Part shown: piece after piece, positions 41,972 through 63,200 of the stretch
How the letters are laid out: each line of letters begins with the position of its first letter
How positions within the stretch are numbered: position 1 is the stretch's first letter
From: Deltaproteobacteria bacterium
GTDB lineage: Bacteria > Bdellovibrionota_C > UBA2361 > SZUA-149 > JAITKM01
Assembly: GCA_031278395.1 (NCBI GenBank)
Contig: JAITKM010000007.1
Coordinates: forward strand, 222,818-286,817
Length of the DNA: 64,000 bases
Direction: 5' to 3'
Program-made: the position numbers and the translations under genes
The notes under the pieces: generated by a model
The model's database searches: none
What the model was told of the DNA's origin: nothing
Seen by the model: only the letters and a program-made list of their open reading frames with translations

Positions 41972-41983
41972 TTTTAGGTTTTT

Positions 41984-42093
41984 CTGGTATGGGGTTACTT
42001 TTGTATATTGAATTTTTATATAATAATTAGTTAATTCAATATATTATATTTTTATAAATCATTAAAAAAGTAAGAAAAGTAACCCCATACCAG
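41984..42093. repeat. MITE/BIME-like palindromic element, full copy A (18-bp terminal inverted repeats CTGGTATGGGGTTACTTT / AAGTAACCCCATACCAG, AT-rich core)
   Basis: Terminal inverted repeats read directly. Same family as 55230-55357 and 60093-60203. Followed by 3x CAGAAAAACC at 42091-42120. Confidence 0.8.
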
Positions 42094-42120
42094 AAAAACC
42101 CCAGAAAAACCAGAAAAAAC

Positions 42121-42995: not shown

Positions 42996-43033
42996 AGATA
43001 ATTAGTTCGTGATTGTTGTAATAGGTTAATAGA

Positions 43034-43810: not shown

Positions 43811-43855
43811 AGGGAAATTTTAGGAGGTTCCTTAATTAACTAAGGATAAGCATTA

Positions 43856-45310
43856 ATGATTAAAGAATACAATATTACAGATATAGTTTTAGAATTAGAG
43901 CGATGTAATTTATTACCAACTATCGTTTTTAGAACTTCGCGTTCACAGTGCGATTCAGATATTTTAAAGGCGGTAAATAACAAAGCCTTAGCTTTGCCTA
44001 TCTCGCAGCAGCGAGCTATCAAAGATGCGGTCTATGAAATAGCCAAAAATTATGAAATGGAGTTGGAATTAATTACTACCCATCCACATTATAGTAGCTT
44101 AATTAAAACTGGCGTAGGGGCGCATCATGCGGGGCAACTCTTAATGTGGCGGTTGTTGCTTGAGGAGTTAATGTCATTGGGAGTGTTAAAAGTTCTTTGT
44201 GCAACAGGAACTGTCGCGGCTGGTGTTGACTTTCCAGCTCGCACAACTGTGGTAACAGCCCATACGAAGCGTGGGCATGACGGTTATAATAAGTTACTTT
44301 CAACAGAGTTTCAGCAGATGTCGGGTCGAGCGGGGCGTCGTGGTAAAGATATAGTTGGTTTTTGTGTAGCAGCGCCCTCGGCGTTTTGTGATGCTCGTGA
44401 ATTATTGAAGTTGTCTAAAACTCCGCCAGAGCCGTTGATGTCCGCATATTTTCCAAGCCCTAGCACAGTTTTAAATTTGTTACGCTATCGCAATGTTGAT
44501 GATTTACGTTTTACGGTGGAGCGGAGTTTAGCCAGTTTTGCCGATAAGAAGCAGGCTGTAATTTTGGAGAAAGAGGCGGCTGAGGTTGATGAAAAAATTA
44601 AAGTTAAAGAAGATCTAGTTGGGCGCTTGAAAGGACATCAGAAAGACAATGAAACTAAGGCGCTGACTAAGTTAATCAAGAAGTCTAAACGACTACACAC
44701 GCAAGCTGAGGAATTAAAGAATAAGCAAGGGACGTTGTTAGATCGAACGATAGCCGGTCTGCGGCAATTAGGGCATTTGAATAATTTTACCCTTTCAGAT
44801 AAGGGGTATTGGAGCGCTAATCTTTGCACAGGTATGGTTTTGGAATTAGCTGAAATAATAGAGGCGGGATATTTTGATCATATTAGTCCAGAGCGGTTAG
44901 CGACAATTTTGGCAGGTATTTGTGGTGAAGATCATCGTCAGTATTTAAAGGCGAGTAAATCTCCGATTTCAGATGCTGATTTTCAAGGGTTAAATGAAAT
45001 TTTAAAGCGTGTTCAAGACATGAACTTACCGGGAGCGCCGACGGAGATAAATGTTATAGTTCCTAATGCGGCATACACTATGGAAGTTTGGTTGCAAGCT
45101 GAGAACTGGCAGGAATTTCGGGCGATGTTGTTGTTGAATGGCGCAGCAGAGGGGGATGCTGCTAGATTAATTACCCAAACTGCAGAGCATTTAAATCAGC
45201 TCAAACGGCTTGACGAGAAGTTTCCAAAATTAGCCAAGCGAGCCGAGGAAGCCCGTCGCAGAATTTTAAGACCGCCTCTTACAGAAGCAATTAATTTAGA
45301 TAGCGTTTAA
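43856..45310 (+). CDS. Ski2-like helicase, C-terminal (RecA2 + winged-helix/ratchet) half, as a separate ORF
   Basis: Motif IV region IVFRTSRSQCD. Motif V/VI (ATGTVAAGVDFPARTTV; QMSGRAGRRG). Has its own leader motif and ATG. Confidence 0.75.
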   Translation: MIKEYNITDIVLELERCNLLPTIVFRTSRSQCDSDILKAVNNKALALPISQQRAIKDAVYEIAKNYEMELELITTHPHYSSLIKTGVGAHHAGQLLMWRLLLEELMSLGVLKVLCATGTVAAGVDFPARTTVVTAHTKRGHDGYNKLLSTEFQQMSGRAGRRGKDIVGFCVAAPSAFCDARELLKLSKTPPEPLMSAYFPSPSTVLNLLRYRNVDDLRFTVERSLASFADKKQAVILEKEAAEVDEKIKVKEDLVGRLKGHQKDNETKALTKLIKKSKRLHTQAEELKNKQGTLLDRTIAGLRQLGHLNNFTLSDKGYWSANLCTGMVLELAEIIEAGYFDHISPERLATILAGICGEDHRQYLKASKSPISDADFQGLNEILKRVQDMNLPGAPTEINVIVPNAAYTMEVWLQAENWQEFRAMLLLNGAAEGDAARLITQTAEHLNQLKRLDEKFPKLAKRAEEARRRILRPPLTEAINLDSV

Positions 45311-45394
45311 TTTTGATATAGACAGAGACTAATTCTTCAACTCGTAAAAAACTAATAGATAGTAGATAGTTAGAGTAGTTTAGAGTAGTTTTTT

Positions 45395-45413
45395 CTGGTA
45401 TGGGGTTACTTTT
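45395..45413. repeat. Solo left arm of the palindromic element family (CTGGTATGGGGTTACTTTT)
   Basis: Exact arm match with no partner arm within 150 bp. Preceded by short tandem AGTAGATAGT/TAGAGTAGTT repeats. Confidence 0.6.
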
Positions 45414-45599
45414 ATATTTTACTTTTATACTTTTGTATCTAGTTTCATCTAGAACAGCGGATCAGTTAAGATTTATGCTGAATTTTAATATGTATTTATA
45501 TTTTAGGACAAGGTCGTTTAAAGAAATTATGAGATATTGTCGATTGTTAGAGTAGTAGAGTGTTAAAAAATTAAGGTCTTTGAAATAGGGAGGAGGTTT

Positions 45600-46574
45600 T
45601 TGGCTATTCAAAAAATTTTATCAGCAGATATTGGTGGAACGAATGGGCGCTTTGCTTATTTTAGCTACGAGGTCGAGGCAAAAAAACTTGAATTAGTAAA
45701 AACCCATTGGATCTCATTAGGACAACTAGAAGAAAAATATTCCAAACCAACTTTAATCGCTATTCTTTCACAGCTGGATTTTGGTTTTGAACTAAACGAG
45801 TTTGACGTTTTAGTGATAGCAGTCGCCTGTCCAATAACTGAACGAAAATTAAAACTGACTAATAATTTACTGACTCTAGACTTAGACGAATTAGAAGCCA
45901 ATTTTAAATGTGTTAGATTACTTAATGACTTTGTTGCGCAAGCCTGCTCTTGTCTTTCTGACCTCAAAGAAACTAGCCGAATAATTCAGCTGGGCAAAAC
46001 AAATCCCAATTCACCCATTGCAGTGGTTGGGGCTGGCACTGGATTTGGTAAAGCCTATATTGTGCCAAACCAAAACGCACCTCTTATTTGCTCCGCCGAA
46101 GGCGGTCAGGCAGCTTTTGCAATGCAAAGTAGGGAAGAAATGGAATTTGCAGAATTTGTTAAAGACCGCCTTGGGGTAACATATCCAAATTACGATAATA
46201 TTGTGTCTGGGTTAGGTTTAACGCTGTTACATGAATTTCTAACTGGTGAGAAACTCAAGCCTCAAGAAATTGCAGCACAATTTACTAACAATCCAAAGCT
46301 TAAAACATTAGAATGGTTTTCAGGTTTTTATGGACGAGCTGGACGAAATTATGTGCTGGAAACACTGGCGTTGGGTGGTTTATTTATTTCTGGTGGAATT
46401 GCTATTAAAAATCCGATTATTATTAGTCATGAAGCTTTTAGGGCTAATTTCATTGATTCAAAAAAGTGTTCAAAGCTTTTACAAGAAGTGCCGATAAGGT
46501 TGTTGACTAATGAAGCGAGCGGTTTATGGGGGGCAGCAGAATTTTGGAGATTGAAGCAGTTAAATTCTTTTTAA
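45600..46574 (+). CDS. glk: Glucokinase (Glk family)
   Basis: N-terminal ATP-binding motif DIGGTNGRFAYF. TTG start with GGAGGAGG 6 nt upstream. Confidence 0.8.
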   Translation: MAIQKILSADIGGTNGRFAYFSYEVEAKKLELVKTHWISLGQLEEKYSKPTLIAILSQLDFGFELNEFDVLVIAVACPITERKLKLTNNLLTLDLDELEANFKCVRLLNDFVAQACSCLSDLKETSRIIQLGKTNPNSPIAVVGAGTGFGKAYIVPNQNAPLICSAEGGQAAFAMQSREEMEFAEFVKDRLGVTYPNYDNIVSGLGLTLLHEFLTGEKLKPQEIAAQFTNNPKLKTLEWFSGFYGRAGRNYVLETLALGGLFISGGIAIKNPIIISHEAFRANFIDSKKCSKLLQEVPIRLLTNEASGLWGAAEFWRLKQLNSF

Positions 46575-46583
46575 TTAAAAATT

Positions 46584-47069
46584 ATGGATTTAGAACTATT
46601 AAATATTTTTACACAATCAGCGGTGAGTGTGATTGAAACAATGGCATTTACAAAAGTTGCTGTTGGCAAACCAGTCTTGAAAGTAGAGAAGGTTACTAAC
46701 GGGGATGTTACTGGTATTATTGGGCTTGCTAATTCAGAGTTTAAAGGGACTTTAGTGATTAGCTTTGAGGCTGAAGCAATAATTGCAGTGGTCAATAACA
46801 TGTTGGGTAGCAATTACACAGAAATGAGTAGCGATGTTATTGATGCAGTTGGCGAAATTACAAATATGATTTGTGGCGCTTCTAAACGTTCTCTTGCCGA
46901 TAGTAAACAGATAATCTTAGATATGGCTTCGCCAACTACTATAATTGGTAGAGATTTAATGATTAATTTTCCGGGTAGCTTACCAGTGGTAGAAATTCCT
47001 TTTGCAACAGAAAAAGGTAAATTTATAATTGATATTACGCTAGGCAAGGAACATCAGTCATTAATTTGA
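46584..47069 (+). CDS. cheX: CheX/CheC-family chemotaxis phosphatase-like protein
   Basis: ~160 aa with a CheX-like conserved block (VGEITNMICGASKRSL). Confidence 0.55.
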   Translation: MDLELLNIFTQSAVSVIETMAFTKVAVGKPVLKVEKVTNGDVTGIIGLANSEFKGTLVISFEAEAIIAVVNNMLGSNYTEMSSDVIDAVGEITNMICGASKRSLADSKQIILDMASPTTIIGRDLMINFPGSLPVVEIPFATEKGKFIIDITLGKEHQSLI

Positions 47070-48617
47070 GAATTTACCTAGCATCACAATTATTTTTGAG
47101 GGGTGGTGAATTACTGCAAAAATAAACGGACGTTCAGCAATAAAAGAAAGCTGTTCAGTATTTTCACTCAAGTTTGTGTTTGCTGCAGTAGCAGTGCCTT
47201 TATCTATAGTAGTTAAATTAGCTTGTTGAATATAAGGATTTAAAAATAAATCAGTAGTGCCGGTAATGCCGGATAAATCAGCTTTGCCGGTAAAGATATC
47301 TGACACGCCTAGTTTTGTTAATTTTTCTTTGACATTAATTCTGGAACTAATTTTTAATTTTGGCACTTTAATATATAATTCCTTCTCGGTGAGAGAAGTT
47401 TCGATAGTATTAATTAGTTCAGCTGATAAAATATTTTCAAGTTCTGCAATGGACATACTGGCATTGGGTAAAATAAATAACAGAGCCAACTCTTGCTCCG
47501 CTGGTTTTAATTCCAGAGCTTGAAAATCTTGGTTAGCAAGATATAAATAATTATTCTTACCAGTAATATAATGTAGCCTTTTTGTTCCAGTGTTATGGGA
47601 GGTAAAAGTTCCTTCGGTTGAAGTAAAATTTTTGTCAAAGGTCAAAGTTAGATTAAACAGATCAGCAATTACCATTCTAGTTGAGATTTTAATTTCTTTA
47701 TTAAAAAGATTTTCAATGTTTTGTTCCGATTTGCTAAAGACCCAGTCATTGATTCTTTTTTGGGTGAAATCAATATCGTTGAAGAAGTCCGATTTATCAA
47801 AATTTAATAGAAAATAATCATTTAGATAGTCATTAAACTCTTTTTGGATGTAATTATTGTCATTTGCCCAGATATTAGAACGATAATAGGAACTATCTTT
47901 ATTGGCTAAAAATATATTGTTAATAGAATTAAAGGTTTCTTTAAAACGCACGCCAATACTTTTTAGATTTTTATCTAGACCTAAGATGTCCTGCATTTGT
48001 TTTTTAGTTTCGTTTTTACTACCAGCGTATAAAGCTGCTAGGTGATGCATTATACTATAAGTTGCCACAACAAAAGAGTCTTCTTTTGTTGCCATGGTTT
48101 GGTAAAGCTTAAGAGAAAATTGGTTATTAGCTGTGGTGATGTCGAAATTTTCTAATAGTTGATCTTGTAAGGGAATAATTTTTTCTTCTTTAACTGGCTC
48201 AGTGATTGTGGCAGATGATTCTACCTCTAGACTATTAGTAGTTGATTTTGAGATTCTAGAGTTTTTAGGCTTGACTTCTTCAAACTGGATATTATTTTTA
48301 CTAACAGCTTGTGCAGTTAGTGGGGCTAGAGATAACGAACAAGCCAGGATGATGAGTAGTATGATTTTGGTTTTATGTTTTAAAACGTCAGATAGAATGT
48401 GCTGAGTAAGTTTATTGATTAGTTTTTTATTAACTGAGACTTCTTCTGCAACATCATAAATGGCACAGATAAGTTCGCCTATAGTGGTATTAAGACTAGA
48501 TTGCGATTGATGGTTTGCTGCGTTTTTTCCCACTTTTATAGGTTTGATTGGCAGTGTGTGGCTAGGTTTAGCATGAGGATTAATTTTTTTCCTATTACTG
48601 TTAGTAACTTTTTCCAT
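47061..48617 (-). CDS. Serpin-family protease inhibitor with ~150-aa N-terminal extension containing a hydrophobic anchor
   Basis: C-terminal serpin signature (FIAERPFIFAVIHHPSKIIVMLGKFSN). Hinge/reactive-centre-loop region upstream. N-terminal hydrophobic segment IILLIILACSLSLAPLTAQA. Confidence 0.8.
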   Translation of the reverse strand: MEKVTNSNRKKINPHAKPSHTLPIKPIKVGKNAANHQSQSSLNTTIGELICAIYDVAEEVSVNKKLINKLTQHILSDVLKHKTKIILLIILACSLSLAPLTAQAVSKNNIQFEEVKPKNSRISKSTTNSLEVESSATITEPVKEEKIIPLQDQLLENFDITTANNQFSLKLYQTMATKEDSFVVATYSIMHHLAALYAGSKNETKKQMQDILGLDKNLKSIGVRFKETFNSINNIFLANKDSSYYRSNIWANDNNYIQKEFNDYLNDYFLLNFDKSDFFNDIDFTQKRINDWVFSKSEQNIENLFNKEIKISTRMVIADLFNLTLTFDKNFTSTEGTFTSHNTGTKRLHYITGKNNYLYLANQDFQALELKPAEQELALLFILPNASMSIAELENILSAELINTIETSLTEKELYIKVPKLKISSRINVKEKLTKLGVSDIFTGKADLSGITGTTDLFLNPYIQQANLTTIDKGTATAANTNLSENTEQLSFIAERPFIFAVIHHPSKIIVMLGKFSN

Positions 48618-48702
48618 TTTATCTCCCGAAACTAGTTATGGTTTTAATGATGTTTTGAGATGTTCTAAACCATGAATTAGATACAAATTTTTGGTCGGGA
48701 GA

Positions 48703-48738
48703 TTTTGGTATCGGGTTCTTGGGATTTTGGTATCGGGT
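48703..48738. repeat. Two degenerate tandem copies of the element arm (TTTTGGTATCGGGTT x2) downstream of the HUH transposase gene
   Basis: Differs from the family arm TTTTGGTATGGGGTT at a single position, and is duplicated 21 bp apart. Confidence 0.5.
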
Positions 48739-49013
48739 TATTAGATTTTTCTTAGTTTTTTTAGTGTCTAATAAGAATTTTTTATTTTATAAAACATCGA
48801 TTTGAAGGGGATAAAAGATAAGAAATTAGTAAAAAGATATATATTGTCAATTCATATGTAGTAGAATTAGTTATTCTCCATGTAACTTATTTAGTTTTTT
48901 ATAAAAAAAAGTTAAAAAGCATATATTTTTCCATAGTTGTCAGTGCAATTTATATCAAATCAGGCTTTTGCATGTAAAATTTTCGATTAATTTACCGCTT
49001 TAAAAAGAACTTG

Positions 49014-49988
49014 TTAAGTTAAAAATAAATTCGGAGGTATATGTTCAAGAAATTCTCCACCCGGCATAAACATTCCAGCCGGAAACAAGATATTACATAA
49101 ACCATTCTTTATTGTTTTATAAGCTTGCTTTGCAATTTGCGTCAGAGATCTGAAATAAGTGATATATGTTTTACGTAATTCGATATTGGAACTGATACAG
49201 AGCATTCTTTTGCTATATTTGGCTGACTTAAATTTTTTATTTATATGTTGAGTTTTAAGTTTTTTTGCTCCGACGACCCCTTTGGGATGTTCTAGTTTTT
49301 TCTCTTCTTCAATAACTTCCTTGATAATTTGATTATTTATTTCCTCAGGATTATTATCTTTATATTCAATAAATCCCTCCATCCAAGCATTAGGTTCTAA
49401 TTCAAAAGTGTGAAATATAGGTTTATCTCCGGCTAGGTTATTAATAAGTTCTTTTTGTTTTTTATCTGTCATTAAAGCTAAGTTGTTTATTTTATAAAAT
49501 TGCGAACGTTTTATCCAAACACATTCTTTTCTATATTCTTTCTTTTTAAACATACTCCAAGAAGAAAGTCCTGGATATTGTTCGATAGAGTTGACTAGAT
49601 CAGCAGAGGCAGGATTTTTATAAATATATTTAATAGTATCAATAACTTTGTCGTAGGTTAAAACTATTGGATCGTCAAATCCATCATTCCAGACGGTATT
49701 TTGTCGAATGCCACAGATTCTATTGATAGCAGAGGCTGATTCTAATTTTAAGAGTCTAATAAAGTTAGGTATATCTGCTGGGTTTCTCACAACTGCGAGT
49801 ATATGAAAGTGGTTAGACATAAAGACAAAGTGACAGATTGAGATGTTATACAAAGATTTAGCGCGTGCTAATATGCCTATTAATGCTGTATTGATTAGGG
49901 GGTATGCAGGAAATGGCAAATCTTTTTCAACGCGTGAGGTTATAAATAATACTGTATTTTCAACATATAATTTTCTTTTCTTAGCCAT
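49014..49988 (-). CDS. HUH-motif Y1 tyrosine transposase (IS200/IS605 TnpA / REP-associated RAYT-like) with ~170-aa C-terminal extension
   Basis: HUH motif NHFHILAVV. The Y/NP/LV/WSS block IKYIYKNPASADLVNSIEQYPGLSSWSMF is typical of Transposase_17/RAYT proteins. Confidence 0.7.
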   Translation of the reverse strand: MAKKRKLYVENTVLFITSRVEKDLPFPAYPLINTALIGILARAKSLYNISICHFVFMSNHFHILAVVRNPADIPNFIRLLKLESASAINRICGIRQNTVWNDGFDDPIVLTYDKVIDTIKYIYKNPASADLVNSIEQYPGLSSWSMFKKKEYRKECVWIKRSQFYKINNLALMTDKKQKELINNLAGDKPIFHTFELEPNAWMEGFIEYKDNNPEEINNQIIKEVIEEEKKLEHPKGVVGAKKLKTQHINKKFKSAKYSKRMLCISSNIELRKTYITYFRSLTQIAKQAYKTIKNGLCNILFPAGMFMPGGEFLEHIPPNLFLT

Positions 49989-50101
49989 AATAGATAGCTC
50001 CGATTGGTAAATTTTTATAAATAAAGAGGTGAGGTTATAACCTCGCTATATACCTATCGGGTGAAATTCTTATTGTTTTCATATGTTCGCTGTCGTAAAT
50101 A

Positions 50102-50175
50102 TAACCCCATACCAGTTCGCGCCAGTTCCAGTTCGCGCCCGCGCGAGTTCGCCAATTAGTAACCCCATACCAGTT
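50102..50175. repeat. Two direct copies of the element right arm (TAACCCCATACCAGTT) flanking a GC-rich CCAGTTCGCGCC-type spacer, upstream of the transposase gene
   Basis: Exact arm sequence at 50102-50117 and 50160-50175. Confidence 0.7.
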
Positions 50176-50265
50176 ACAAAAAAACTTATGGTTAAAATTA
50201 CAATTTTTATGTAGTCCATAGCAGCAGTTTTACAGGTTTAGTAATTATACATTATAAATAAAGAG

Positions 50266-53010
50266 ATGTCACAGACTGTTCGCAAAAGAGTTCCACCATT
50301 GCCTAGGCATTTTGAACCACCTAAAAAATCTAAGCCACCAGTAGAAATACCGCCGGTAAACCGGACTTTTGTTCAGGAAAGTTTTGTATGGTTTTTTTGT
50401 GCCATAGGAATTTTTTTGTTTTTAGCTCTCTACTCAAATTTTAAAGCCCACAGTTTTTTAAAAGGACATGACCCTAGAGAGACTTTACAAATGTCGTTAG
50501 CCATAACTAATTCCATGGGGCAGGTAGGGCAAAAGGTTTCTGACTTTTTAATAATCTGGCTGAGCTATTGTTCTTTTATCGTGGCGTTATGTCCATTTCT
50601 GCTGGCACTAAAATTATGGCGTAGTGGTTTTCCACAAATTAAAAAAATTTTCATCGGCGCATTTCTAGCAACCATATCTTCAGTCGTTATGGTTGGTTCT
50701 TTAGCCGCACTAGCAACAGTTCTTTATGGACATAATGGCGGCGGTAAAGCAGGAGCGCTACTAGCTAAATCTATTAATAATTATATCAATGAAGGTGGCA
50801 CCTGCTTAGTTTCTATAGTTGTATTTTTTCTTTCACTAGCTTTCTGTACAGGTCTCAAAACAACACAAATTCTGGCTTACATTTCAAGAAGCTTTCAACT
50901 TCTGAAACAAACTATTGTTGACGCTTTAGTCGAGCTGAAAGAAGAAAATGAATTCTTAAAAGATAAGGATTTAAGTATTAGTCACCTAGTTTTAAATTCC
51001 ATTAGGTTTTCATTTAACATTGTTTGTGCGACTTTATTTGCAATTCTGATTATCTATCCTAAGGTTTTAATTGGTAAAATTAGAAATAAATGGTTGGCTC
51101 AACAGCCTAGTTCATTCAAAAAACATATGGCGGATAATTATAAGGTTGTCCGAGTTGGTCATAAACTAAGGTTAAGATTTGACCCAGAAAAACAAACCAA
51201 AAATAGTAAAGATCTAAAATGGAAACTCGGTAACAAGAAAACAGCTCAGCAAATGGAATTAAATTTGGATCAGCGTGTCCAAATATCTCGCCAGAAAAAA
51301 GATAAAAAAGACAAAAAGAATTTACTAGGCAGATTAAAAAACAAAAATAAACATCCTAAATCTATAATCAAAGAGCTAAACTTAGCAGAACGCTATTCTT
51401 TGCCTCCACTGAATTTATTAGCTAGTGGCGAGAATGAACCAAGTGTTGCTCCAACCAATGAGGAAATAATAGAAAATAGTCATCTCTTAGAGCAGGCCTT
51501 TGAGGATTTTAAAATTAGCGGCAAAATTACAGAAGTTCATCCTGGACCTATTGTAACTTTATACCAATACAAGCCAGCTGCTGGAATTAAAACTAAATCA
51601 ATTGTTAGCCTTTCAGATGACATTGCTAGAACTTTAAAAGTAGCTAGCGTGCGAATTTATGCCCCAGTGCCAGGGCAAGACACTGTGGGAATTGAAATTC
51701 CTAATACTAATCGTGAAGTTGTGTATTTTCGTGACGTAATTGATAGTAACGTTTGGTTTGACGCTAAAGATTATGAACTAAAGCTGGCTTTGGCTAAAAC
51801 AACTTTTGGTGACCCATATGTAGCAGATTTGGCACGTATGCCGCATTTATTAATTGCTGGCGCTACTGGAACAGGTAAGTCAGTTTCTCTTAATTCTGTT
51901 TTATTAAGCTTATTATATCAGCATACGCCTGAAACTTTAAGATTGATTCTTTTTGACCCAAAACTAGTTGAACTTAGTGTCTACGATGGAATTGCCCATT
52001 TGCTAACACCCGTCGTTACTGATCCTAAACGAGCTAAAGGAGTTTTGTGGTGGGCTTTAGAAGAGATGGAGCGACGTTTAACTCTCATGCAGGAGTTGGG
52101 TGTGAGAAATTTAAGTAGTTTTAATAAAGCTGTGCGTGGCGAACATGTTGATTTAAATTCTTTAGAAACTGAGCCTGTTTTAGATGATGAAGTGATTGAG
52201 CTGGGTGATAAGAATAAAATTGATCCGCATGATAAACTTAAAGAAAGTGAAAAGAAAAAATATGAGCCTCTGCCTTGGATTGTGATTGTTATAGATGAAT
52301 TTGCTGACTTGATTATGTCAGTGCGTGAAATAGAGGAATATATTGTTAAGTTGGCTCAAAAAGCCCGTGCGACTGGAATACACCTAATTATTGCTACGCA
52401 ACGACCTAGTGTAAATGTAATAACTGGTTTGATTAAGGCAAACTTTCCGTCGCGTATTTCGTTTAAAGTAACAAGCCGCACTGATGCTCGAACTGTTTTG
52501 GATGCCTCAGGCGCAGAGAAATTACTCGGGCGCGGTGATATGTTATTTTTGCCGCCAGGCACAGCAGTAGTCAGAAGAATGCACGGACCTTTTGTGAGCG
52601 ATAAAGAAGTACTGTCAGTAGTGCGCTGGTTAAAGACGCATAACAAGCCAATGTATAATTCAGAAATTGAAGAAGCTATCAATAAAATTACCGAAATAAA
52701 TGAAAATAGTGCTGGAGCATTGAGTGAAGGTATTGAGTTAGATATTGATGGTAAGCCATATGATAAACTTTATGACAAGGTTGTAGCGTTCACGATAGCT
52801 AAGGGAGAAATTTCAACCAGTCGTTTACAAGCTGAGTTTGGTATAGGTTATCCTAAAGCCACTAAATTAATGAGCACGATGGAGAAGGAAGGAATAATTG
52901 AAGCAGCGAAAGGTTCAAAAAGGCGGAGGGTTATTGTGGGAATGGGAAGTAGTGTTAACTCAAATAATCTTGATAAAGATTACGACGACGGAGAGGAAAG
53001 TTTATTGTAA
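50266..53010 (+). CDS. ftsK: DNA translocase FtsK
   Basis: N-terminal TM domain, linker, AAA+ motor (GATGTGKSV; DEFADL; ATQRPS) and C-terminal gamma winged-helix domain. Confidence 0.95.
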   Translation: MSQTVRKRVPPLPRHFEPPKKSKPPVEIPPVNRTFVQESFVWFFCAIGIFLFLALYSNFKAHSFLKGHDPRETLQMSLAITNSMGQVGQKVSDFLIIWLSYCSFIVALCPFLLALKLWRSGFPQIKKIFIGAFLATISSVVMVGSLAALATVLYGHNGGGKAGALLAKSINNYINEGGTCLVSIVVFFLSLAFCTGLKTTQILAYISRSFQLLKQTIVDALVELKEENEFLKDKDLSISHLVLNSIRFSFNIVCATLFAILIIYPKVLIGKIRNKWLAQQPSSFKKHMADNYKVVRVGHKLRLRFDPEKQTKNSKDLKWKLGNKKTAQQMELNLDQRVQISRQKKDKKDKKNLLGRLKNKNKHPKSIIKELNLAERYSLPPLNLLASGENEPSVAPTNEEIIENSHLLEQAFEDFKISGKITEVHPGPIVTLYQYKPAAGIKTKSIVSLSDDIARTLKVASVRIYAPVPGQDTVGIEIPNTNREVVYFRDVIDSNVWFDAKDYELKLALAKTTFGDPYVADLARMPHLLIAGATGTGKSVSLNSVLLSLLYQHTPETLRLILFDPKLVELSVYDGIAHLLTPVVTDPKRAKGVLWWALEEMERRLTLMQELGVRNLSSFNKAVRGEHVDLNSLETEPVLDDEVIELGDKNKIDPHDKLKESEKKKYEPLPWIVIVIDEFADLIMSVREIEEYIVKLAQKARATGIHLIIATQRPSVNVITGLIKANFPSRISFKVTSRTDARTVLDASGAEKLLGRGDMLFLPPGTAVVRRMHGPFVSDKEVLSVVRWLKTHNKPMYNSEIEEAINKITEINENSAGALSEGIELDIDGKPYDKLYDKVVAFTIAKGEISTSRLQAEFGIGYPKATKLMSTMEKEGIIEAAKGSKRRRVIVGMGSSVNSNNLDKDYDDGEESLL

Positions 53011-53161
53011 TTGTAGGGCAGCCCTGATGGTTGTTGTCCTTAGATCTGTTTTTTTTATCCGGATTTTCATAAATTAATACTAATTTTTTTCGTGTTAATT
53101 CGTGGATAAAAAAAGCTAGAACGGTTCAGATTTCTTATTAATTGTAAATTTAAAGTTTTTT

Positions 53162-53896
53162 ATGGATATAAAAACTGTCAGTGTTGGTAATAAAAAACTA
53201 TTTGCGTTTGGGGATATTCATGGATGTTTTACGGAGTTGAATATCTTAATTCAGTATTTAGAACAGAACAAAATTATTGCGCCGGATGATATGGTTGTTT
53301 TTTTAGGAGATTATATTGACCGGGGGGCTAACTCATTTGCTGTAGTTGATTTACTGATTGACTTTAAATATAAATATCCGCAGACTTACTTTTTAAAAGG
53401 CAATCATGAGTCAATGTTTTTAAATTTTTTAGGTTTTGACGCCAGAAAAGAAAGCGTTTTTTTGTATAATGGAGGTTTAGAAACCATTCTTAGTTATGAT
53501 ATTCAAGTCGGCGCGTTACCAGAAACTGCGGTGCATAAGATACCGCCTTTACATTTTAAATTTTACACAGAGTTGATTGATATTTTAGAGACAGAGGAAT
53601 TTATTTTTGTGCATGGTGGTCTCGATATTAAACGGAAATTATCTGAGCAGGTGGAGCGCGATACTTTGTGGATTAGAGATGAATTTATTACTAAGCCACA
53701 TGAATTTGGCAAAACAATAATTTTTGGACATACGCCATTTAAGGAAATCTATCTGGATTTGCCTTACAAGATTGGTCTAGATACCGGCTTAGTATATGGT
53801 AACAAATTAACCTGTTTAGAAATGACAGAGTTCAAGTATTACGAAACTGCCTTAGCTGAGCAGGAAGTAGTAGCGGGAAAAATTGAGAAGTTATGA
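53162..53896 (+). CDS. PPP-family Ser/Thr (metallo)phosphatase
   Basis: GDIHG, GDYIDRG and GNHE metal-binding motifs. Confidence 0.8.
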   Translation: MDIKTVSVGNKKLFAFGDIHGCFTELNILIQYLEQNKIIAPDDMVVFLGDYIDRGANSFAVVDLLIDFKYKYPQTYFLKGNHESMFLNFLGFDARKESVFLYNGGLETILSYDIQVGALPETAVHKIPPLHFKFYTELIDILETEEFIFVHGGLDIKRKLSEQVERDTLWIRDEFITKPHEFGKTIIFGHTPFKEIYLDLPYKIGLDTGLVYGNKLTCLEMTEFKYYETALAEQEVVAGKIEKL

Positions 53897-55212
53897 AGTT
53901 AGCAAATGAACAAAAAATACAGCGAGCGCCTTTGGCAGAGCGGATGCGCCCACGCACCTTGGATGAAGTTCTAGGGCAGGATAAAATTATTGGACCCAAG
54001 TCTTCGTTTGGGCAAATTATTCGAAACCCACTAGCATCTGTTCCGTCAGTAATTTTTTGGGGACCGCCGGGAACTGGCAAAACAACCTTAGCTCAAGTTA
54101 TTGCCGCAACAGGTAATTATAATTTTGTTCGGTTATCTGGTGTGCTGGATGGAGTGGCTGAGTTAAGAAAGATTGTAGCGGATGCGTTAGAAATGCAAAA
54201 AGCAGAAGGTAAGCCGACACTAGCCTTAGTAGATGAAATTCACCGTTTTAATAAATCACAACAAGATGCTTTTTTACCGCATGTTGAATCGGGATTATTA
54301 ACTGTTATTGGGCAAACCACTGAAAATGTAAGTTTTAGAATTCGTAACGCCTTACTGAGTAGGATGCGAGTATTGCCGCTGGAAGCTCTGGACGAGGAAG
54401 TTATCGTGAAAATCCTGAATAATGCTATCAACGATAAGGAGCGAGGTTTAGGAGGATGGGGAATAAAACTGGAGGCAGATGCTGCAGAATTAATTGCCAA
54501 ATATAGTATTGGGGATGCTAGACGAGCTTTAAATTGTTTGGAGTGGGCAGCAGCATATGTGCGCGCTGAAAATACGACGATCATCAATAAAGAAGTGGTT
54601 AATAATTCATTTAATAAGCAGCCGCAGTTATTTGATCAGAGCGATGACTATCACTACGACAATATTTCAGCGTTTATTAAGTCTATGCGTGGGTCTGATC
54701 CAGATGCGGCTTTGTATTATATGATGAATGCGTTGGAGGGTGGTGAAGATCCGTTGTTTTTGACGCGGCGGATGATAATTTTTGCTTCTGAAGATTGTAG
54801 TTGTGATCCGCGGGCTTTAGAAATTGCTTTAAATGTTGATCAAGCTGTGCAGAGAGTTGGTATGCCAGAGGGGCGAATTCCGCTAGCGCAGGGGGTAGTA
54901 TATTTATCATGTTGTGCGAAATCCAATGCTTCTTATTTGGCAATGGAAGCAATGACGGCAATTGTGCGGGAGAATCAAAATTTAGAAATTCCGCGTCGAA
55001 TTAGAAATGCCCCGACAGATTTAATGAAAAAAATGGGCAATCATTTAGGTTATCATTATCCACATAATTATCCAGGTGGTTTTTATCCAGAGCGCTATTT
55101 GCCCGATAAGTTGGGGGATTTAATTGTGTATGAACCGACTGACAGGGGTTTGGATGCACAAATTAAAGAGCGTTTAACGAAATACCGTGAATTAATAAAA
55201 CAAGCGAAATAA
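53893..55212 (+). CDS. rarA: Replication-associated recombination protein A (AAA+ ATPase RarA/MgsA)
   Basis: Walker A GPPGTGKTTLA, Walker B LVDEIHRFNK, and the MgsA C-terminal helical domain. Confidence 0.9.
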   Translation: MKLANEQKIQRAPLAERMRPRTLDEVLGQDKIIGPKSSFGQIIRNPLASVPSVIFWGPPGTGKTTLAQVIAATGNYNFVRLSGVLDGVAELRKIVADALEMQKAEGKPTLALVDEIHRFNKSQQDAFLPHVESGLLTVIGQTTENVSFRIRNALLSRMRVLPLEALDEEVIVKILNNAINDKERGLGGWGIKLEADAAELIAKYSIGDARRALNCLEWAAAYVRAENTTIINKEVVNNSFNKQPQLFDQSDDYHYDNISAFIKSMRGSDPDAALYYMMNALEGGEDPLFLTRRMIIFASEDCSCDPRALEIALNVDQAVQRVGMPEGRIPLAQGVVYLSCCAKSNASYLAMEAMTAIVRENQNLEIPRRIRNAPTDLMKKMGNHLGYHYPHNYPGGFYPERYLPDKLGDLIVYEPTDRGLDAQIKERLTKYRELIKQAK

Positions 55213-55229
55213 TGAAAGTTTCTAGTTCA

Positions 55230-55357
55230 CTGGTATGGGGTTACTTTATTTCCTATGTCTTTTATATTTTTATTTAAAAAATATCACATTATTTAAGTAT
55301 ATTATTGTTACTAAAATCATTAAAAATATAAGAAAATAAAGTAACCCCATACCAGTT
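55230..55357. repeat. MITE/BIME-like palindromic element, full copy D
   Basis: Arms CTGGTATGGGGTTACTTT and AAAGTAACCCCATACCAGTT. The core shares TAAGTATATTAT and AAAATATAAGAAA with copy E. Confidence 0.8.
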
Positions 55358-55552
55358 GACCCAGTTGAATATAGAGATTCCATAGAATAATTATGGTATT
55401 TTCGATTTTTGCAACTATTTATCTTGATTGTCATCTAATTCATAACAGTATTGTGCATATAGACTTCTAAGCCAATATTTATGCTTTATACATTTTTCGC
55501 GTATCGAAAATATTAACACTACAAGCGTAGTAATATATTCTATTTTTTACAT

Positions 55553-57616: not shown

Positions 57617-57628
57617 TCATGAAAATTA

Positions 57629-58357: not shown

Positions 58358-58379
58358 TCATTTCTTTTTTGAAAGGACA

Positions 58380-59875: not shown

Positions 59876-60092
59876 ATATAATAGGGGTGTTTTTATGATA
59901 TTAGATATTTTTAGTCTCAGATTGTTATTTTACTCCACACTTTGAGCCTTGATTACATATAATTAATTCAGCCAGTTAGATGTTCTTAAAAAAATCTTTA
60001 TCCTTTTATATACATTTTGTCAGGGAAGCAACTGTTGTTTGCGGTGTTACCAAATATCGAATAATGGCAATTCTAATAGTTCTGGATTTTTT

Positions 60093-60203
60093 TGGTATGG
60101 GGTTACTTTGATATTTAGATATCTAAAAAAATAACAAATAAATTAAGTATATTATAGTATTTAATACACTGAAAATATAAGAAATAAAGTAACCCTGTAC
60201 CAG
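60093..60203. repeat. MITE/BIME-like palindromic element, full copy E, overlapping the 3' end of the LRR gene
   Basis: Arms TGGTATGGGGTTACTTT and AAAGTAACCCTGTACCAG. The last ~28 codons of the LRR ORF are read from this element. Confidence 0.8.
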
Positions 60204-63200
60204 TGGGAATATGATGAATATGACCGCCAACGTATTCCGGGAGCTGCAATCCTTTTGCTGAGGTAAGCTTATTAAGATAAATATCTTTGCCAACGTATTC
60301 CGGGAGCTGCAATCCTTTTACTGAGGTAAGATTCCTAAGATAAAGATTTCCGCCGACGTGTTTCGGGAGCTGTAATCCTTCGGCTGAGGTAAGATAATCA
60401 AGATAAAGATCTCCGCCGACGTATTCCGTGAGTTGCAATCCTTCGGCTGAGGTAAGATTACTAAGAACAAGATTTTTACTAACGTATTCCGGGAGTTTTA
60501 TTCCTTTGGCTGAGGTAAGCCTACTAAGAAAAAGATCTCCGTCGACGTGTTTCGGGAGCTGCAATCCTTCGGCTGAGGTAAGATTATCAAGATAAAGAGC
60601 TCCGCTGACGTGTTTCGGGAGCTGCAATCCTTTTGCTGAGGTAAGATTACCAAGATAAAGAATTCCGCCGAAGTGTTTCGGGAGCTGTAATCCTTCGGCT
60701 GAGGTAAGACTAGTAAGATCAAGATATCCGCCAACGTATTCCGGGAGCTGCAATCCTTCGGCTGAGGTAAGATTATTAAGATTAAGACCTCCGCCGACGT
60801 GTTTCGGGAGCTGCAATCCTTTGGCTGAGGTAAGATCATCAAGAAAAAGATTTCCACTAACGTATTCCGGGAGTTTTATTCCTTTGGCTGAGGTAAGATT
60901 CCTAAGATCAATATGTCCGTAATAAATCTTAGCTCCCTTAAATATTTTATTAAATGATTTCACAGTGAATTTTTGTTCATTAATATCCTCATCTAAACGT
61001 ACCTCCTCTGGTTTACAATTGAAAATTTGACTCAAATCTTGTTTTTTATTTCGATTTTCAAGAAGTTCTTTAATTCTTGGATCGTTACTATAGCCAAATC
61101 CTTCAATTCTTCCGTCAATTTCGTAGAGGAATCTTAAATCTTCTACAGTCAACTCCTCTCCTGTTTTTGCACGATTATCTATGTCTGTAAGCCGCTGCAT
61201 GTCGGCGCTCCTTTTCCTGAAAACATCGGCTTCTCTGCCAAACTCTGCAAGTTTTTTATTAAGAGTTTCTTGCATTACAGGCTCAATATTCTGACTTGGC
61301 AAGATGCCACGAATTTCGCCAATTTTATTCTTGTTCATACGAATAGCTAAACGAGGTTGAACAAATTTACCTTGCTCATCTTTTGAGTAATAAACATAAA
61401 AATCACCACCTTGAATTTGAGTATTAGCTGTGCTTTGACCAGCTGTACACCAGCCGGTTCCCCTACCTTGTAAGGATTTCCAGAGCTCTTTGGCGTGCGA
61501 CATGTTGCCTTGCGAGAATTTTCTCCATTCGCCTTCAATGCTTAAGTTATTTTCTTGAGCAGCTAAGGACTTCTGAATTAATTCGGCATACAGCTTAGGA
61601 AAATTTTTTTCAAAATCTATGATAGCTTGCGGATTTTTATTACCTTTGGCGATTCCCTCGTAGATATCATAAATTTGCGCCAGCGCTTCGCGGTTGATAT
61701 CCGGAAACGGCGCTACTGTGTTTTTAGTGCGTTTCTTAAATTTTCCTTGCTTTTTGTCAAATTGCGAAAGACTGATAAGTTGATTCCAAGCGTAAAACTT
61801 AAACCACGCTGGATATACAGCATCGCTGGAAGCAAGATAGTCAATGATATTATCAAGCGATTTCTTCTGGTCGTTGATAACGGTTTCTATCATTCTTTTC
61901 CTTGTTTCGGGAGTAATTTCAATTGTTCCATGCCCTTGCTCACGAGCAATTTTCTTTTGGAGTTCAATTTCGGATTCCGGGTAATTTTCAGGTTTTAACA
62001 GAAGTTGGTCGTAAATTTTATCTCGGTATACTTTTCTAAAAGTTTTTCTATCGAGAAAAATATTTTCTAATCGATTAATATATGTATCAATTTTTGGCCC
62101 GGGTTCGTTTGGAACATTTTTACCTGTAACTAGTTTTTTACTTTTAACAGCTTTTTTAACCGGAGCTGAGTTATGTAGTTTGGGGTCCTTCAAATGAATA
62201 GGATGTTTGTTGTTACCGCGCTTTTCAGCTTTGATATTAGGTAAGGCTTGTTCAATGTGGTAATTATCGGAAGTTTGGTGTGAAGCAACCGAGCTTACGA
62301 TATCGTTTCCTATGGCCTTTAAAGGAGTTTCTATTACTTCCACTTTAATCCCGAAATTATTCGCTTTGATAAAATCAGCAAATTCTCTCGCTTCTTTAAC
62401 CTTATTTTCACTGCACAACTGCGCTAACTTTCGCACCACCGCATCGTTGACTTGCGGGTTATCTAAATTCAGCTCTAATTTTTTATTTTTTGCAGATTGA
62501 AGCAACTTAGCCACATTCTCTAAATTACCTTTTTCAATCGATTGGCTTACGCCTTTATAAAACGACTCGGTATTTTCCTGCTTGCTTAATATTCCATATC
62601 CCTTCGCTGCATTGATAACTGCTGCATCCAAATTACCATCAGCTACAGCAGCACTAATTTTACTTGCTATATTCTTCTTAACCTGCACCTGCACTAGCTT
62701 GCCACCAACGTGTAACATTACCAGCAACGTCGCTGTCTGTGCCAGTGCATCACCTTTTTGTCCCTCAGAGGCCGCAATCCCACTCTCGGAGACCAGCACT
62801 ACATTACCTAAACTTCCTAAAACTCCTACCGCACCTCCTGTTAAAAACGATCGACCAACCTCGTTAAAATTTACTCCCGTGCCATACCGCACGTCTGACC
62901 CAACTTGACTAACAAGATTGCTTGATGCAAAAGCCGAAGCTGTCGAAAGACCACCAATGCCTCTTGTACTCAGTTGTCTCACAATTGATTGCTGTATCTC
63001 AGGCGAAAAATTAGCTTTAGATAATGTCACTGCAAGCATTTCCGGACCCTGACTGGCTAGCCATTTGGTATTGCAAAGCACACTTACTCCGTTAGCTACT
63101 TTGAAAAAAGTAGCATTAGCTAAACCTTCCACGGCATTGTCTGCTATAGACTTTGACAAGTCAAAATTACCTGCCACTCCGCCTCCTTGAACTGCCGCAT

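What the first reader, a model, noticed from the sequence alone, without database searches (positions are those of the whole stretch)
48703..50175. REPtron-like unit: HUH/Y1 (RAYT-like) transposase gene flanked on both sides by copies of a palindromic repeat family
The 324-aa ORF (49014-49988, -) carries the HUH motif (NHFHILAVV) and the Tyr/NP/LV/WSS block characteristic of IS200/RAYT Y1 transposases. It also has an unusual ~170-aa C-terminal extension. Upstream (50102-50175) lie two direct copies of the arm TAACCCCATACCAGTT, separated by a GC-rich CCAGTTCGCGCC-type spacer. Downstream (48703-48738) lie two degenerate copies (TTTTGGTATCGGGTT). The same arm sequence forms the terminal inverted repeats of dispersed ~110-130 bp elements elsewhere in the window. 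RAYTs are known to associate with and probably disseminate REP/BIME elements. This looks like such a system in a low-GC lineage, with a longer-than-usual transposase and composite (MITE-like) rather than simple REP substrates.
Basis: partly seen in the sequence, partly recalled or inferred. Interest (0 to 1): 0.7.

Follow-up and report, generated by a model that had tools for sequence, protein, structure and literature searches.

The report
RAYT-like transposase gene with cognate repeats
A gene for a single-strand-DNA-cutting (HUH/tyrosine) transposase relative is bracketed by copies of a 15-base repeat that also forms the ends of small hairpin elements scattered nearby; this is a new long-tailed variant of the known RAYT/REPIN and TIRYT kind of system, not a new kind of system.

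The parts
49014..49988 (-). Gene for a 324-aa Y1 HUH (RAYT/TIRYT-like) protein. The catalytic core is aa 1-140 (HUH H60/H62, Tyr Y121 in YIYKNP, SSW motif 141-144). The conserved tail of unknown fold family is aa 141-324.
   Evidence: dN/dS against the L001 paralogue is 0.023 for the core and 0.19 for the tail.
50101..50117 (-). Proximal upstream arm. It reads CTGGTATGGGGTTAT on the gene strand and starts 113 nt before the ATG.
   Evidence: An arm sits at the equivalent position in L001 (-118), L127 (-73) and L128 (-101).
50118..50158 (.). GC-rich spacer between the two upstream arms. It is built from reiterations of the arm's outer end (CCAGTTCGCGCC twice, plus a partial inverted copy) and forms only a weak hairpin.
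   Evidence: the 71% GC maximum of the window, unique sequence. (-7.7 kcal/mol, z -2.5).
50159..50175 (-). Distal upstream arm (CTGGTATGGGGTTAC on the gene strand).
50244..50272 (-). Sigma-70-like promoter match (GTGACA-17-TATAAT, 11 of 12) upstream of both arms. If used, the arms lie in a leader of about 250 nt.
   Evidence: consensus match only.
50031..50044 (-). Terminator-like hairpin with a T-run in the leader, about 43 nt before the ATG.
   Evidence: consensus match only.
48703..48741 (.). Two degenerate direct copies of the arm in inverted orientation relative to the upstream arms (AACCCGATACCAA on the gene strand), 273 and 295 nt past the stop codon.
   Evidence: 3 and 4 mismatches. 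They do not fold on their own.
48742..49013 (-). AT-rich 272-nt non-coding stretch between the stop codon and the downstream arms. Its arm-proximal roughly 20 nt resembles the inner right end of the small elements.
   Evidence: alignment A4; suggestive only, because the sequence is AT-rich.
41977..42100 (+). Element E1: inverted dimer of the arm (26-nt perfect arms) around an AT-rich interior. It starts 6 nt after the stop of the Dus gene.
   Evidence: I2. ssDNA fold -34.9 kcal/mol, z -10.7..
45393..45409 (+). Solo arm with no partner arm within reach.
   Evidence: No fold.
55229..55356 (+). Element E3: inverted dimer, starting 17 nt after the stop of the MgsA-like gene.
   Evidence: I4. ssDNA fold -28.3 kcal/mol, z -8.5..
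60090..60205 (+). Element E4: a more degenerate inverted dimer. Its right arm (GTAACCCTGTACCAG) is the variant found beside the L001 paralogue. It overlaps the 3' end of the 1287-aa ORF.
   Evidence: I7. (-13 kcal/mol, z -2.4)..

Best explanation
This is a cognate pair of enzyme and repeat, of the RAYT/REPIN and TIRYT/TIRtron kind.

**The enzyme.** The gene encodes a Y1 HUH single-strand DNA endonuclease/ligase. H60 and H62 would hold the metal ion, Y121 would be the nucleophile forming a 5'-phosphotyrosine link, and N125 lies in the class-2 'Y---NP' motif.

**The DNA partner.** The partner is a 15-nt non-palindromic arm, consensus CTGGTA[TC]NGGGTTAC.
- Direct copies of the arm lie in the gene's leader, and inverted copies lie about 270 nt past its stop.
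- Two inverted arms around roughly 75-90 nt of AT-rich DNA make 110-126-bp non-coding elements. On single-stranded DNA these fold into long hairpins, with the arms forming the base of the stem.

**Inferred mechanism.** The enzyme recognises the arms on ssDNA exposed by replication or repair. It cuts at or near the outer CTGG/CCAG boundary on both sides and joins the ends. The hairpin element is reinserted elsewhere without a target duplication. This spreads the small elements in trans, mostly nearby.

**State of the gene copy.** The gene-bearing unit has the same polarity as the small elements, so it probably began as the autonomous form. Its downstream arms are now decayed (3-4 mismatches) while the dispersed copies are near-perfect, so this copy is more likely a stationary source of enzyme.

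**The tail.** The conserved 185-aa C-terminal tail packs onto the catalytic core. I guess that it supplies recognition of arms that lack the small hairpin which TnpA-REP reads.

**Shown:** protein family and catalytic motifs, repeat architecture, hairpin potential, conservation of the gene-arm layout across loci, absence of target duplications. **Inferred:** cleavage, mobility, the role of the tail.
For: **Protein**
- Pfam Y1_Tnp is above its cut-off.
- The RAYT model scores 59.7 bits against 14.8 for the IS200 model.
- HUH, Y121 and N125-P126 are invariant in 18 relatives.
- The model is confident: pLDDT 81, pTM 0.83.
- Purifying selection acts on both core and tail.

**Repeats**
- 10 arms against about 0.5 expected.
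- The three elements are homologous through their interiors and lie in one orientation.
- ssDNA hairpins have z-scores of -10.7 and -8.5.
- There are no target duplications of 3 bp or more.
- There is no Rfam family.

**Association across loci**
- In 9 other loci with different neighbouring genes, the window's arm (up to 4 mismatches) occurs 9 times in the expected orientation within 500 nt of the gene. Shuffles give 0.59 (0 of 500 reach 9), and there are no hits in the wrong orientation.
- L118 has 4 direct copies of its own 15-mer upstream and 1 inverted copy downstream.
- L123 has three 86-nt arm units upstream, and L122 has five or more inverted copies downstream.
- L128 has a downstream doublet.
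- The arm is kept at 13 of 15 positions between two paralogues whose synonymous sites are saturated (dS 1.3).
- L001 starts inside a small element.
- An independent assembly breaks inside E4's arm.

**Literature**
- TIRtrons/TIRYTs share the motif GGGGWSAS and form dimeric repeat families (PMC3733652). The arm core GGGGTTAC matches 7 of 8 positions.
Against: - No cleavage or transposition was observed. There is no comparison of empty and filled sites.
- Genome-wide copy number is unknown. My genome scan was wasted on a 14-mer that is too short.
- In the 73 kb I could see, all copies lie within 10.6 kb of the gene and none lies in the 51 kb to the left. So this may be a small local cluster and not a dispersed family.
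- Single arms have no hairpin, unlike every Y1 substrate solved so far.
- The NCBIfam RAYT cut-off is not reached.
- A single inverted pair per locus is not significant on its own.
- The similarity between the gene unit's inner ends and the small elements is weak, given the AT-rich sequence.
Confidence: 0.68

Rival explanations
1. The 1.47-kb unit (arms, gene, arms) is itself an active, autonomous insertion sequence of a Y1 type with terminal inverted repeats. The 110-126-bp elements are its internally deleted, MITE-like derivatives. On this view the gene is a selfish transposase and not a domesticated, stationary RAYT.
For: - The gene sits inside a frame with the same arm polarity as the small elements.
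- About 20 nt inside the downstream arm resembles the small elements' right end.
- Relatives lie in unrelated gene neighbourhoods: UvrA-like, MlaD, tRNA/ABC and others.
- There are probably three paralogues in one MAG.
- An independent assembly cannot cross gene nt 35-579, which is what happens with multi-copy sequence.
Against: - The paralogues are old (76-81% amino-acid identity, dS 1.3). They are not the near-identical copies of an active IS.
- The downstream arms of this copy are degenerate, and arms occur in variable tandem numbers (1-5) instead of one defined end.
- P0026 occupies the same locus in six samples.
- Known Y1 transposases use subterminal hairpins and not terminal inverted repeats (established knowledge of IS200/IS605).
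Confidence: 0.2
2. The small elements are ordinary MITEs moved by an unrelated (DDE-type) transposase encoded elsewhere. The Y1 gene merely lies in, or attracts, a cluster of them.
For: Inverted ends of 15-26 bp around an AT-rich non-coding interior are the classic MITE shape. Single arms lack the hairpins expected of Y1 substrates.
Against: - There are no target-site duplications at any of the three elements.
- The gene-arm association, with fixed orientation and co-varying arm sequence, recurs in independent loci.
- The arm is contiguous with a conserved leader of the gene in two paralogues.
Confidence: 0.05
3. The arms are binding sites for the protein acting as a regulator or structural factor, such as autoregulatory operators or iterons in its own leader. 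The hairpin elements are immobile regulatory or mRNA-end structures that arose by local duplication, with no transposition involved.
For: - Arms occur as direct tandem copies in the leader, downstream of a promoter-like site.
- Elements sit 6-17 nt after stop codons.
- All copies cluster within about 10 kb of the gene.
Against: - The catalytic HUH and Tyr residues are invariant, and the core is under very strong purifying selection (dN/dS 0.023).
- The elements lie at separate intergenic sites between unrelated genes, which local tandem duplication does not produce.
- They are not followed by the T-runs of intrinsic terminators.
Confidence: 0.07

Closest known systems
TIRtron / TIRYT (TIR-associated tyrosine transposase; Di Nocera et al. 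2013, PMC3733652), equated with TnpA-Y1 subclass 2.1 / RAYT Group 1 (Quentin et al. 2018, PMC6006769; Bertels et al. 2017, PMC5581495)
   Same: - A RAYT-like Y1 HUH gene flanked by inverted repeats that are not REP hairpins.
- The repeats share a G-rich motif: GGGGWSAS against our GGGGTTAC.
- The repeats also occur elsewhere as dimers, in moderately abundant families.
- The protein has an NH[YF]H HuH motif, a Y---NP tyrosine motif, a serine motif just after the core and a C-terminal extension.
   Different: - Published TIRYTs are 168-238 aa, and those in subclass 2.1 have DnaA_C/HTH-like tails. Ours is 324 aa.
- Our tail has no Pfam hit at E up to 10 and no similarity to TIRYT tails.
- The residue after the conserved Trp is N/T, not E/Q.
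- Core similarity to TIRYTs (up to 59 bits) is no higher than to classical RAYTs (66 bits).
REPtron: RAYT (TnpA-REP) with REP/REPIN elements (Nunvar 2010; Bertels & Rainey 2011, PMC3116915; Ton-Hoang 2012; structure 4ER8, PMC3479197)
   Same: - Nearest solved structure and best family model.
- The gene is flanked by its own repeat.
- Non-autonomous inverted doublets fold into hairpins (REPIN-like).
- Several diverged paralogues, each with its own repeat variant, as in Pseudomonas.
   Different: - A single repeat unit is not a palindrome and has no conserved 5' GTAG tag.
- The spacer between the two arms is long (about 75-90 nt) and AT-rich.
- The NCBIfam RAYT cut-off is not reached.
- The protein is twice the length of RAYTs.
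- High genome-wide abundance has not been shown.
TnpA-Y1 subclass 2.3 (Quentin et al. 2018)
   Same: Median length of 325 aa, a long two-part C-terminal tail with a proximal serine motif, several diverged copies per genome, and no REP hairpins.
   Different: Subclass 2.3 has a 55-aa insertion between beta3 and alphaC that gives a HuH-to-Tyr distance of about 110 aa. Ours is 59-61 aa with no such insertion. The motifs NHYH/WE/YVDLNP contrast with our NHFH/W[NT]/YIYKNP.
IS200/IS605 family and its non-autonomous derivatives (PATEs; named from my own knowledge)
   Same: Y1 HUH chemistry on ssDNA, insertion without target duplication, and a terminator-like hairpin in the leader reminiscent of IS200 expression control.
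   Different: - Its ends are subterminal hairpins, not inverted repeats.
- There is no tnpB partner here.
- The copies here are not near-identical.

Membership tests
Y1 HUH transposase superfamily (Pfam PF01797) | Score above the Pfam gathering cut-off | tested here: met
   31.8 bits against a cut-off of 23, E 1.8e-7, aa 34-105.
Y1 HUH transposase superfamily (Pfam PF01797) | HUH motif and a single catalytic Tyr on the following helix, both conserved | tested here: met
   H60, H62 and Y121 are invariant in 18 relatives. They align with the HMH and Y115 region of 4ER8.
Y1 HUH transposase superfamily (Pfam PF01797) | HUH nuclease fold | tested here: met
   [not shown]
RAYT / TnpA-REP (NCBIfam NF047646; class 2 of Quentin 2018) | Score above the NCBIfam curated cut-off | tested here: not met
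   59.7 bits against a cut-off of 80. It is still the best model, covering aa 4-139.
RAYT / TnpA-REP (NCBIfam NF047646; class 2 of Quentin 2018) | Class-2 tyrosine signature Y---NP (against Y---Q in IS200) | tested here: met
   Y121-I-Y-K-N125-P126, with Y, N and P invariant. Signature taken from Table 1.
RAYT / TnpA-REP (NCBIfam NF047646; class 2 of Quentin 2018) | Gene flanked by REP units: short imperfect palindromes forming hairpins, with a GTAG tag | tested here: not met
   Single arms and the downstream doublet have 0 kcal/mol folds. No conserved GTAG lies next to the arms.
RAYT / TnpA-REP (NCBIfam NF047646; class 2 of Quentin 2018) | Flanking repeat is highly over-represented genome-wide (tens to hundreds of copies) | tested here: inconclusive
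   10 arms in the window against about 0.5 expected. All lie in an 18-kb stretch, with none in 51 kb to the left. The whole genome was not available.
RAYT / TnpA-REP (NCBIfam NF047646; class 2 of Quentin 2018) | Typically one copy, or a few diverged copies, per genome, with no near-identical duplicates | tested here: inconclusive
   Three diverged paralogues are inferred from adjacent NCBI accessions. An assembly gap inside the gene hints at further similar copies.
TIRYT / TIRtron (Di Nocera 2013) | RAYT-like gene flanked by inverted repeats that are not REP hairpins | tested here: met
   Arms at -127 and -185 upstream, and inverted arms at +273 and +295 downstream. They do not self-fold. The layout recurs in other loci.
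TIRYT / TIRtron (Di Nocera 2013) | TIR carries the GGGGWSAS motif (the majority type) | tested here: inconclusive
   GGGGTTAC matches 7 of 8 positions. Relatives have GGGCTAC, CGGGTTAC and AGGTTCT.
TIRYT / TIRtron (Di Nocera 2013) | C-terminal DnaA_C/HTH_23/HTH_28-like tail (all subclass 2.1 TIRYTs, per Quentin 2018) | tested here: not met
   No Pfam hit at E up to 10 for aa 141-324. The family profile aligns with 13 published TIRYTs over the core only.
TnpA-Y1 subclass 2.3 (Quentin 2018) | HuH-Tyr distance of about 110 aa, caused by a conserved 55-aa insertion between beta3 and alphaC | tested here: not met
   The distance is 59-61 aa. The model shows beta3 (61-67) followed directly by a helix (70-92). 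Criterion.
TnpA-Y1 subclass 2.1 (Quentin 2018) | Motifs NH[YF]H or NHVH, W[EQ], Y[IV]xLNP; proximal SS tail; median length 238 aa | tested here: inconclusive
   NHFH and SS are met. W is followed by N/T, the Tyr motif is YIYKNP and the length is 324 aa, so these are not met. The authors' HMMs were not available.
IS200/IS605 insertion sequence | Subterminal hairpins at both ends, the Y---Q motif, near-identical multiple copies, often a tnpB partner | tested here: not met
   IS200 model 14.8 bits against a cut-off of 55. Y---N and not Y---Q. No end hairpins. The neighbours are serpin and FtsK. The paralogues are 76-81% identical.
MITE of a DDE transposon | Terminal inverted repeats plus direct target-site duplications | tested here: not met
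   Inverted repeats are present. No duplication of 3 bp or more was found at E1, E3 or E4 with boundary shifts of 0-11 nt.
REPIN (REP doublet forming hairpin) | Two inverted copies of the RAYT-flanking repeat separated by a spacer, folding into one hairpin | tested here: met
   E1 folds at -34.9 kcal/mol (z -10.7) and E3 at -28.3 (z -8.5). The same arm flanks the gene. Unlike classical REPINs, the unit is not itself palindromic and the spacer is long.

The most novel reading that the evidence does not exclude
The roughly 325-aa proteins form an undescribed subclass of Y1 HUH enzymes, widespread in uncultured bacteria. Their novel C-terminal module lets them act on non-hairpin arms. On this reading the arm-gene-arm unit is a still-autonomous 'Y1 transposon with terminal inverted repeats' that spawns REPIN-like hairpin elements. 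It would be a living intermediate between IS200-type insertion sequences and domesticated RAYTs. It would also be the first long-tailed TnpA-Y1 group with a demonstrable cognate repeat, where the 2018 survey found none for such groups.
Probability: 0.2. Interest if true: 0.65.

Novelty: new variant of a known kind. Interest (0 to 1): 0.45.

Why it matters
RAYT/REPIN systems are the textbook case of a domesticated bacterial transposase living with its own non-autonomous elements. Their biochemistry is known for only one enzyme and one hairpin type.

The 2018 survey of the Y1 family reported that the subclasses with large C-terminal domains have no identifiable associated repeats, which left their function open. 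Here a long-tailed family from uncultured, low-GC bacteria has a clear and conserved DNA partner that evolves along with it, and that partner is not a hairpin on its own.

This gives a concrete, testable substrate for an otherwise orphan enzyme family: a 15-nt arm and a 110-bp hairpin element. It also offers a handle on how Y1 enzymes can recognise non-palindromic ends. If nothing beyond what is shown here holds, it is one more, somewhat unusual, member of a known kind of system.

Tried and rejected
1. **Genome-collection scan with the 14-mer TGGTATGGGGTTAC.** The pattern was too short for 596 Gb. No genome-wide count was obtained.
2. **Metagenome scan with the protein alignment.** It returned only four short loci.
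3. **Exact-protein look-ups.** The look-ups for the window protein, P0001 and P0004 found nothing on record.
4. **Generic test for the best inverted 15-mer between the up- and downstream flanks.** It has no power in AT-rich DNA, where 12-13 of 15 matches arise by chance. I replaced it with the a-priori motif and orientation test.
5. **The shared contig break 258 nt upstream of P0026.** I first read it as a sign of a repeat. It is in fact a tRNA gene, so I retracted that inference.
6. **Assignment to subclass 2.3 on length alone.** Rejected because of the HuH-Tyr spacing.
7. **A model of the C-terminal domain alone.** pLDDT was 41, which is unusable, so no domain-specific fold search was run. 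The afdb50 library was unavailable.
8. **Rfam.** Only far-sub-threshold miRNA-precursor hits, which reflect the hairpin shape.
9. **k-mers shared with the L001 paralogue.** The longest identical run is 23 nt, too short to explain the assembly breaks inside the gene.
Full report
**Observation**

ORF 49014-49988(-) is 324 aa and has a GGAG ribosome-binding site. TAACCCCATACCAGTT occurs at 50102-50117 and 50160-50175, separated by a 42-nt GC-rich spacer. Two degenerate copies (TTTTGGTATCGGGTT) lie in the opposite orientation at 48703-48717 and 48725-48739.

The arm is far more frequent than chance. With up to 3 mismatches the 16-mer gives 9 hits against 0.41 expected. With up to 2 mismatches the 13-mer core gives 10 hits against 0.56 expected. 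At up to 3 mismatches to the 15-mer, all 10 hits are genuine copies.

Besides the four gene-flanking copies there are three complete elements and a solo arm:

| Element | Coordinates |
|---|---|
| E1 | 41977-42100 |
| E3 | 55229-55356 |
| E4 | 60090-60205 |
| Solo arm | 45393-45409 |

The three elements are homologous through their AT-rich interiors as well as their arms, and they lie in the same orientation.

**The DNA elements**

Folded as single-stranded DNA, E1 and E3 form long hairpins far more stable than shuffled controls (-34.9 kcal/mol, z -10.7; -28.3 kcal/mol, z -8.5). E4 is weaker (z -2.4). Single arms, the solo copy and the downstream doublet do not fold at all. The repeat unit is therefore not a REP-type palindrome. 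Only inverted dimers make a hairpin, with the arms at the base of the stem.

No Rfam family matches. None of the three elements is flanked by a direct target duplication of 3 bp or more, even when the boundary is allowed to shift by up to 11 nt. That fits Y1-type insertion and argues against DDE-type MITEs.

The elements sit 6-17 nt after stop codons, or overlap an ORF's 3' end. All dispersed copies lie within 10.6 kb of the gene. None is found in window positions 1-41,900, nor in a further 9.1 kb to the left recovered from an independent assembly of the same strain. A post-hoc uniform-placement probability within the 64-kb window is about 0.01.

**The protein**

- Pfam Y1_Tnp is above its cut-off (31.8 bits against 23).
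- The NCBIfam RAYT model is the best hit but below its cut-off (59.7 against 80). The IS200 model scores 14.8.
- In an alignment of 18 relatives, H60, H62, Y121, N125 and P126 are invariant. So are several C-terminal residues: P199, G240, R272, I276, P303 and G305.
- The family profile's best solved match is 4ER8, E. coli TnpA-REP, with the HUH and YIYxNP motifs aligned.
- The AlphaFold model is good (pLDDT 81, pTM 0.83).

The tail (aa 141-324) has no Pfam hit even at E up to 10 and no structural match. It is confident only in the full-length model; modelled alone it reaches pLDDT 41. This suggests it packs on the core and is not a free-standing domain.

Compared with the L001 gene, dN/dS is 0.023 for the core and 0.19 for the tail, at dS about 1.3. 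So the whole ORF is functional.

**How unusual is the long form?**

It is not unusual within its own family. A word-indexed search found only 23 relatives. An exhaustive profile search found 17,677 hits at E up to 1e-3 and 366 clusters (at 50% identity) at E up to 1e-30. Nearly all of the top 150 are 300-340 aa and match along their full length. They come from metagenomes and MAGs, and the only source name given is 'REP element-mobilizing transposase RayT'.

**The gene-repeat association is a property of the family**

Relatives lie in unrelated neighbourhoods. Using the window's arm as an a-priori motif, the 500-nt flanks of 9 other loci contain 9 matches (up to 4 mismatches) in the expected orientation. 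That orientation is the forward arm upstream of the gene and the reverse arm downstream. Shuffles give 0.59 (0 of 500 reach 9), there are no matches in the wrong orientation, and the background in the rest of the loci predicts about 0.4.

De novo searches of the flanks show the same plan with diverged arm sequences:
- L118 has four direct TCCCTCGTCCAGCCT copies upstream and one inverted copy downstream.
- L123 has three 86-nt arm-led units upstream and an R-like arm about 235 nt past the stop.
- L122 has CTTGTACAGCCC upstream and five or more inverted copies downstream.
- L128 has a 30-nt doublet downstream and a 12-of-15 inverted match at -101.

A single inverted pair per locus is not significant on its own. 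The evidence lies in the recurrence, the orientation and the tandem copies.

L001 also begins inside a small element whose end matches E4. Its upstream arm runs into a leader that is conserved with the window's.

**Copy number**

The window's strain is present in run SRR14710901. Contig L135 is 100% identical to window 49955-60109. It ends inside E4's arm and at gene nt 34. The 102-kb contig on the other side starts at gene nt 580. So gene nt 35-579 is unassembled there. Runs shared with the L001 gene (23 nt at most) do not explain this.

The NCBI accessions of the window's protein and of the 81% and 76% relatives are MDR2337401, MDR2337761 and MDR2337786. I infer one MAG with at least three diverged paralogues, and L001 would be one of them. 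E4's right arm carries the L001-type variant, which is consistent with that inference.

**Comparison with what is known**

- Di Nocera et al. (PMC3733652) defined TIRtrons/TIRYTs: RAYT-like genes flanked by non-REP inverted repeats that share GGGGWSAS, some of which seed moderately abundant dimeric families.
- Quentin et al. (PMC6006769) equate these with subclass 2.1. They report that the long-tailed subclasses 2.1 and 2.3 have no identifiable associated REP structures.
- Bertels et al. (PMC5581495) found only modest flanking 16-mer abundance for the corresponding Group 1.

Our system matches the TIRtron definition in architecture, and its arm core GGGGTTAC matches the motif at 7 of 8 positions. 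The protein, however, fits no tabulated subclass:
- Subclass 2.3 is excluded by the HuH-Tyr spacing (about 60 aa against about 110).
- Subclass 2.1 fits on NHFH and the SS motif. It does not fit on W[EQ], on length (238 against 324) or on tail type.

Scored against published sequences from the Di Nocera supplement, the family profile aligns only over the core. The scores are similar for RAYTs (up to 66 bits) and TIRYTs (up to 59 bits).

**Mechanism (inferred)**

By analogy with IS608 TnpA and TnpA-REP (established chemistry), the enzyme would cut ssDNA through Y121 with HUH-bound metal. The inverted arms of an element would pair on exposed single strands. Cleavage near the outer CTGG/CCAG boundary on both sides and rejoining would excise the hairpin, which would then be reinserted without a duplication.

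This gene copy has decayed downstream arms, while the dispersed copies are near-perfect. I therefore favour a stationary gene supplying enzyme in trans (confidence 0.68 for the cognate enzyme-repeat system). The still-autonomous reading is the main rival (0.2).

A promoter-like site upstream of the arms and a terminator-like hairpin before the ATG suggest that the arms lie in a leader of about 250 nt. This rests on consensus matches only.

**Verdict**

It is a new long-tailed variant of the RAYT/TIRYT family with a clear cognate repeat. It is not a new category of system. Mobility and genome-wide abundance remain untested.

Noticed in passing
window 42092-42121, 55352-55368, 50112-50140, 45371-45390; L001 5778-5795; L123 86-475; L122 6904-7220: The outer 6-13 nt of an arm is often reiterated in tandem right next to it. 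Examples are CCAGAAAAA three times, CCAGTTGA twice, CCAGTTCGCGCC twice, CTTTCTGGT twice and arrays of AGGTTCA. This could be a footprint of repeated cleavage and rejoining, or of slippage, at the arm terminus.
   Followed up: partly
window 60090-60205 with ORF 60115-63978(-); L001 5790-5804 with ORF 329-5815: Element E4 supplies the last roughly 30 codons and the stop of a 1287-aa ORF. In L001 the gene-proximal arm overlaps the 3' end of an 1828-aa UvrA-like ORF. Arms can therefore sit inside coding 3' ends, as reported for intragenic REPs.
   Followed up: no
window 49410-49954 (gene nt 35-579); L135, L136: An independent assembly of the same strain (Logan, SRR14710901) covers both flanks at 99.99-100% identity but breaks at gene nt 34 and nt 580, leaving the middle of the gene unassembled. 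This hints at further similar copies or strain variants.
   Followed up: partly
P0001, P0003, P0004 (NCBI MDR2337401, MDR2337761, MDR2337786): Three family members (100%, 81% and 76% identical to the window protein) have NCBI accessions within 385 of each other and the same MAG label. They are probably three diverged paralogues in one genome, each with its own arm variant.
   Followed up: partly
window 50104-50158: The spacer between the two upstream arms contains the most GC-rich 41-mer of the 64-kb window (71% in a genome of 36% GC). The sequence is unique in the window.
   Followed up: yes
window 41977-60205, compared with 1-41900 and L134 1-9127: All arm copies lie within 10.6 kb of the gene, and all four dispersed copies share one orientation on the strand with positive GC skew. 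No copies occur in the 51 kb to the left.
   Followed up: partly
window 47061-48617(-): A 518-aa bacterial serpin (Pfam Serpin, E 8e-62) carries an N-terminal extension of about 160 aa. It lies immediately downstream of the transposase-like unit.
   Followed up: no
window 43034-45310(+): A DEAD/ResIII helicase ORF (258 aa) is followed by a separate 484-aa ORF with a DSHCT (Ski2/Mtr4-type C-terminal) domain. That domain is mostly known from eukaryotic and archaeal exosome helicases. This is either a split gene or a two-gene arrangement.
   Followed up: no
L001 329-5815: An 1828-aa ORF with UvrA DNA-binding and interaction domains is about twice the length of canonical UvrA.
   Followed up: no
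L123 160-241 and 1767-1844: Simple CTAAA/CTAAAAAAA-type repeats flank the arm units on both sides of the L123 gene.
   Followed up: no
window 50244-50272(-) and 50031-50044(-): A near-consensus sigma-70 promoter match overlaps the first codons of the divergent ftsK gene. A terminator-like hairpin lies just before the transposase start, reminiscent of IS200 expression control.
   Followed up: no
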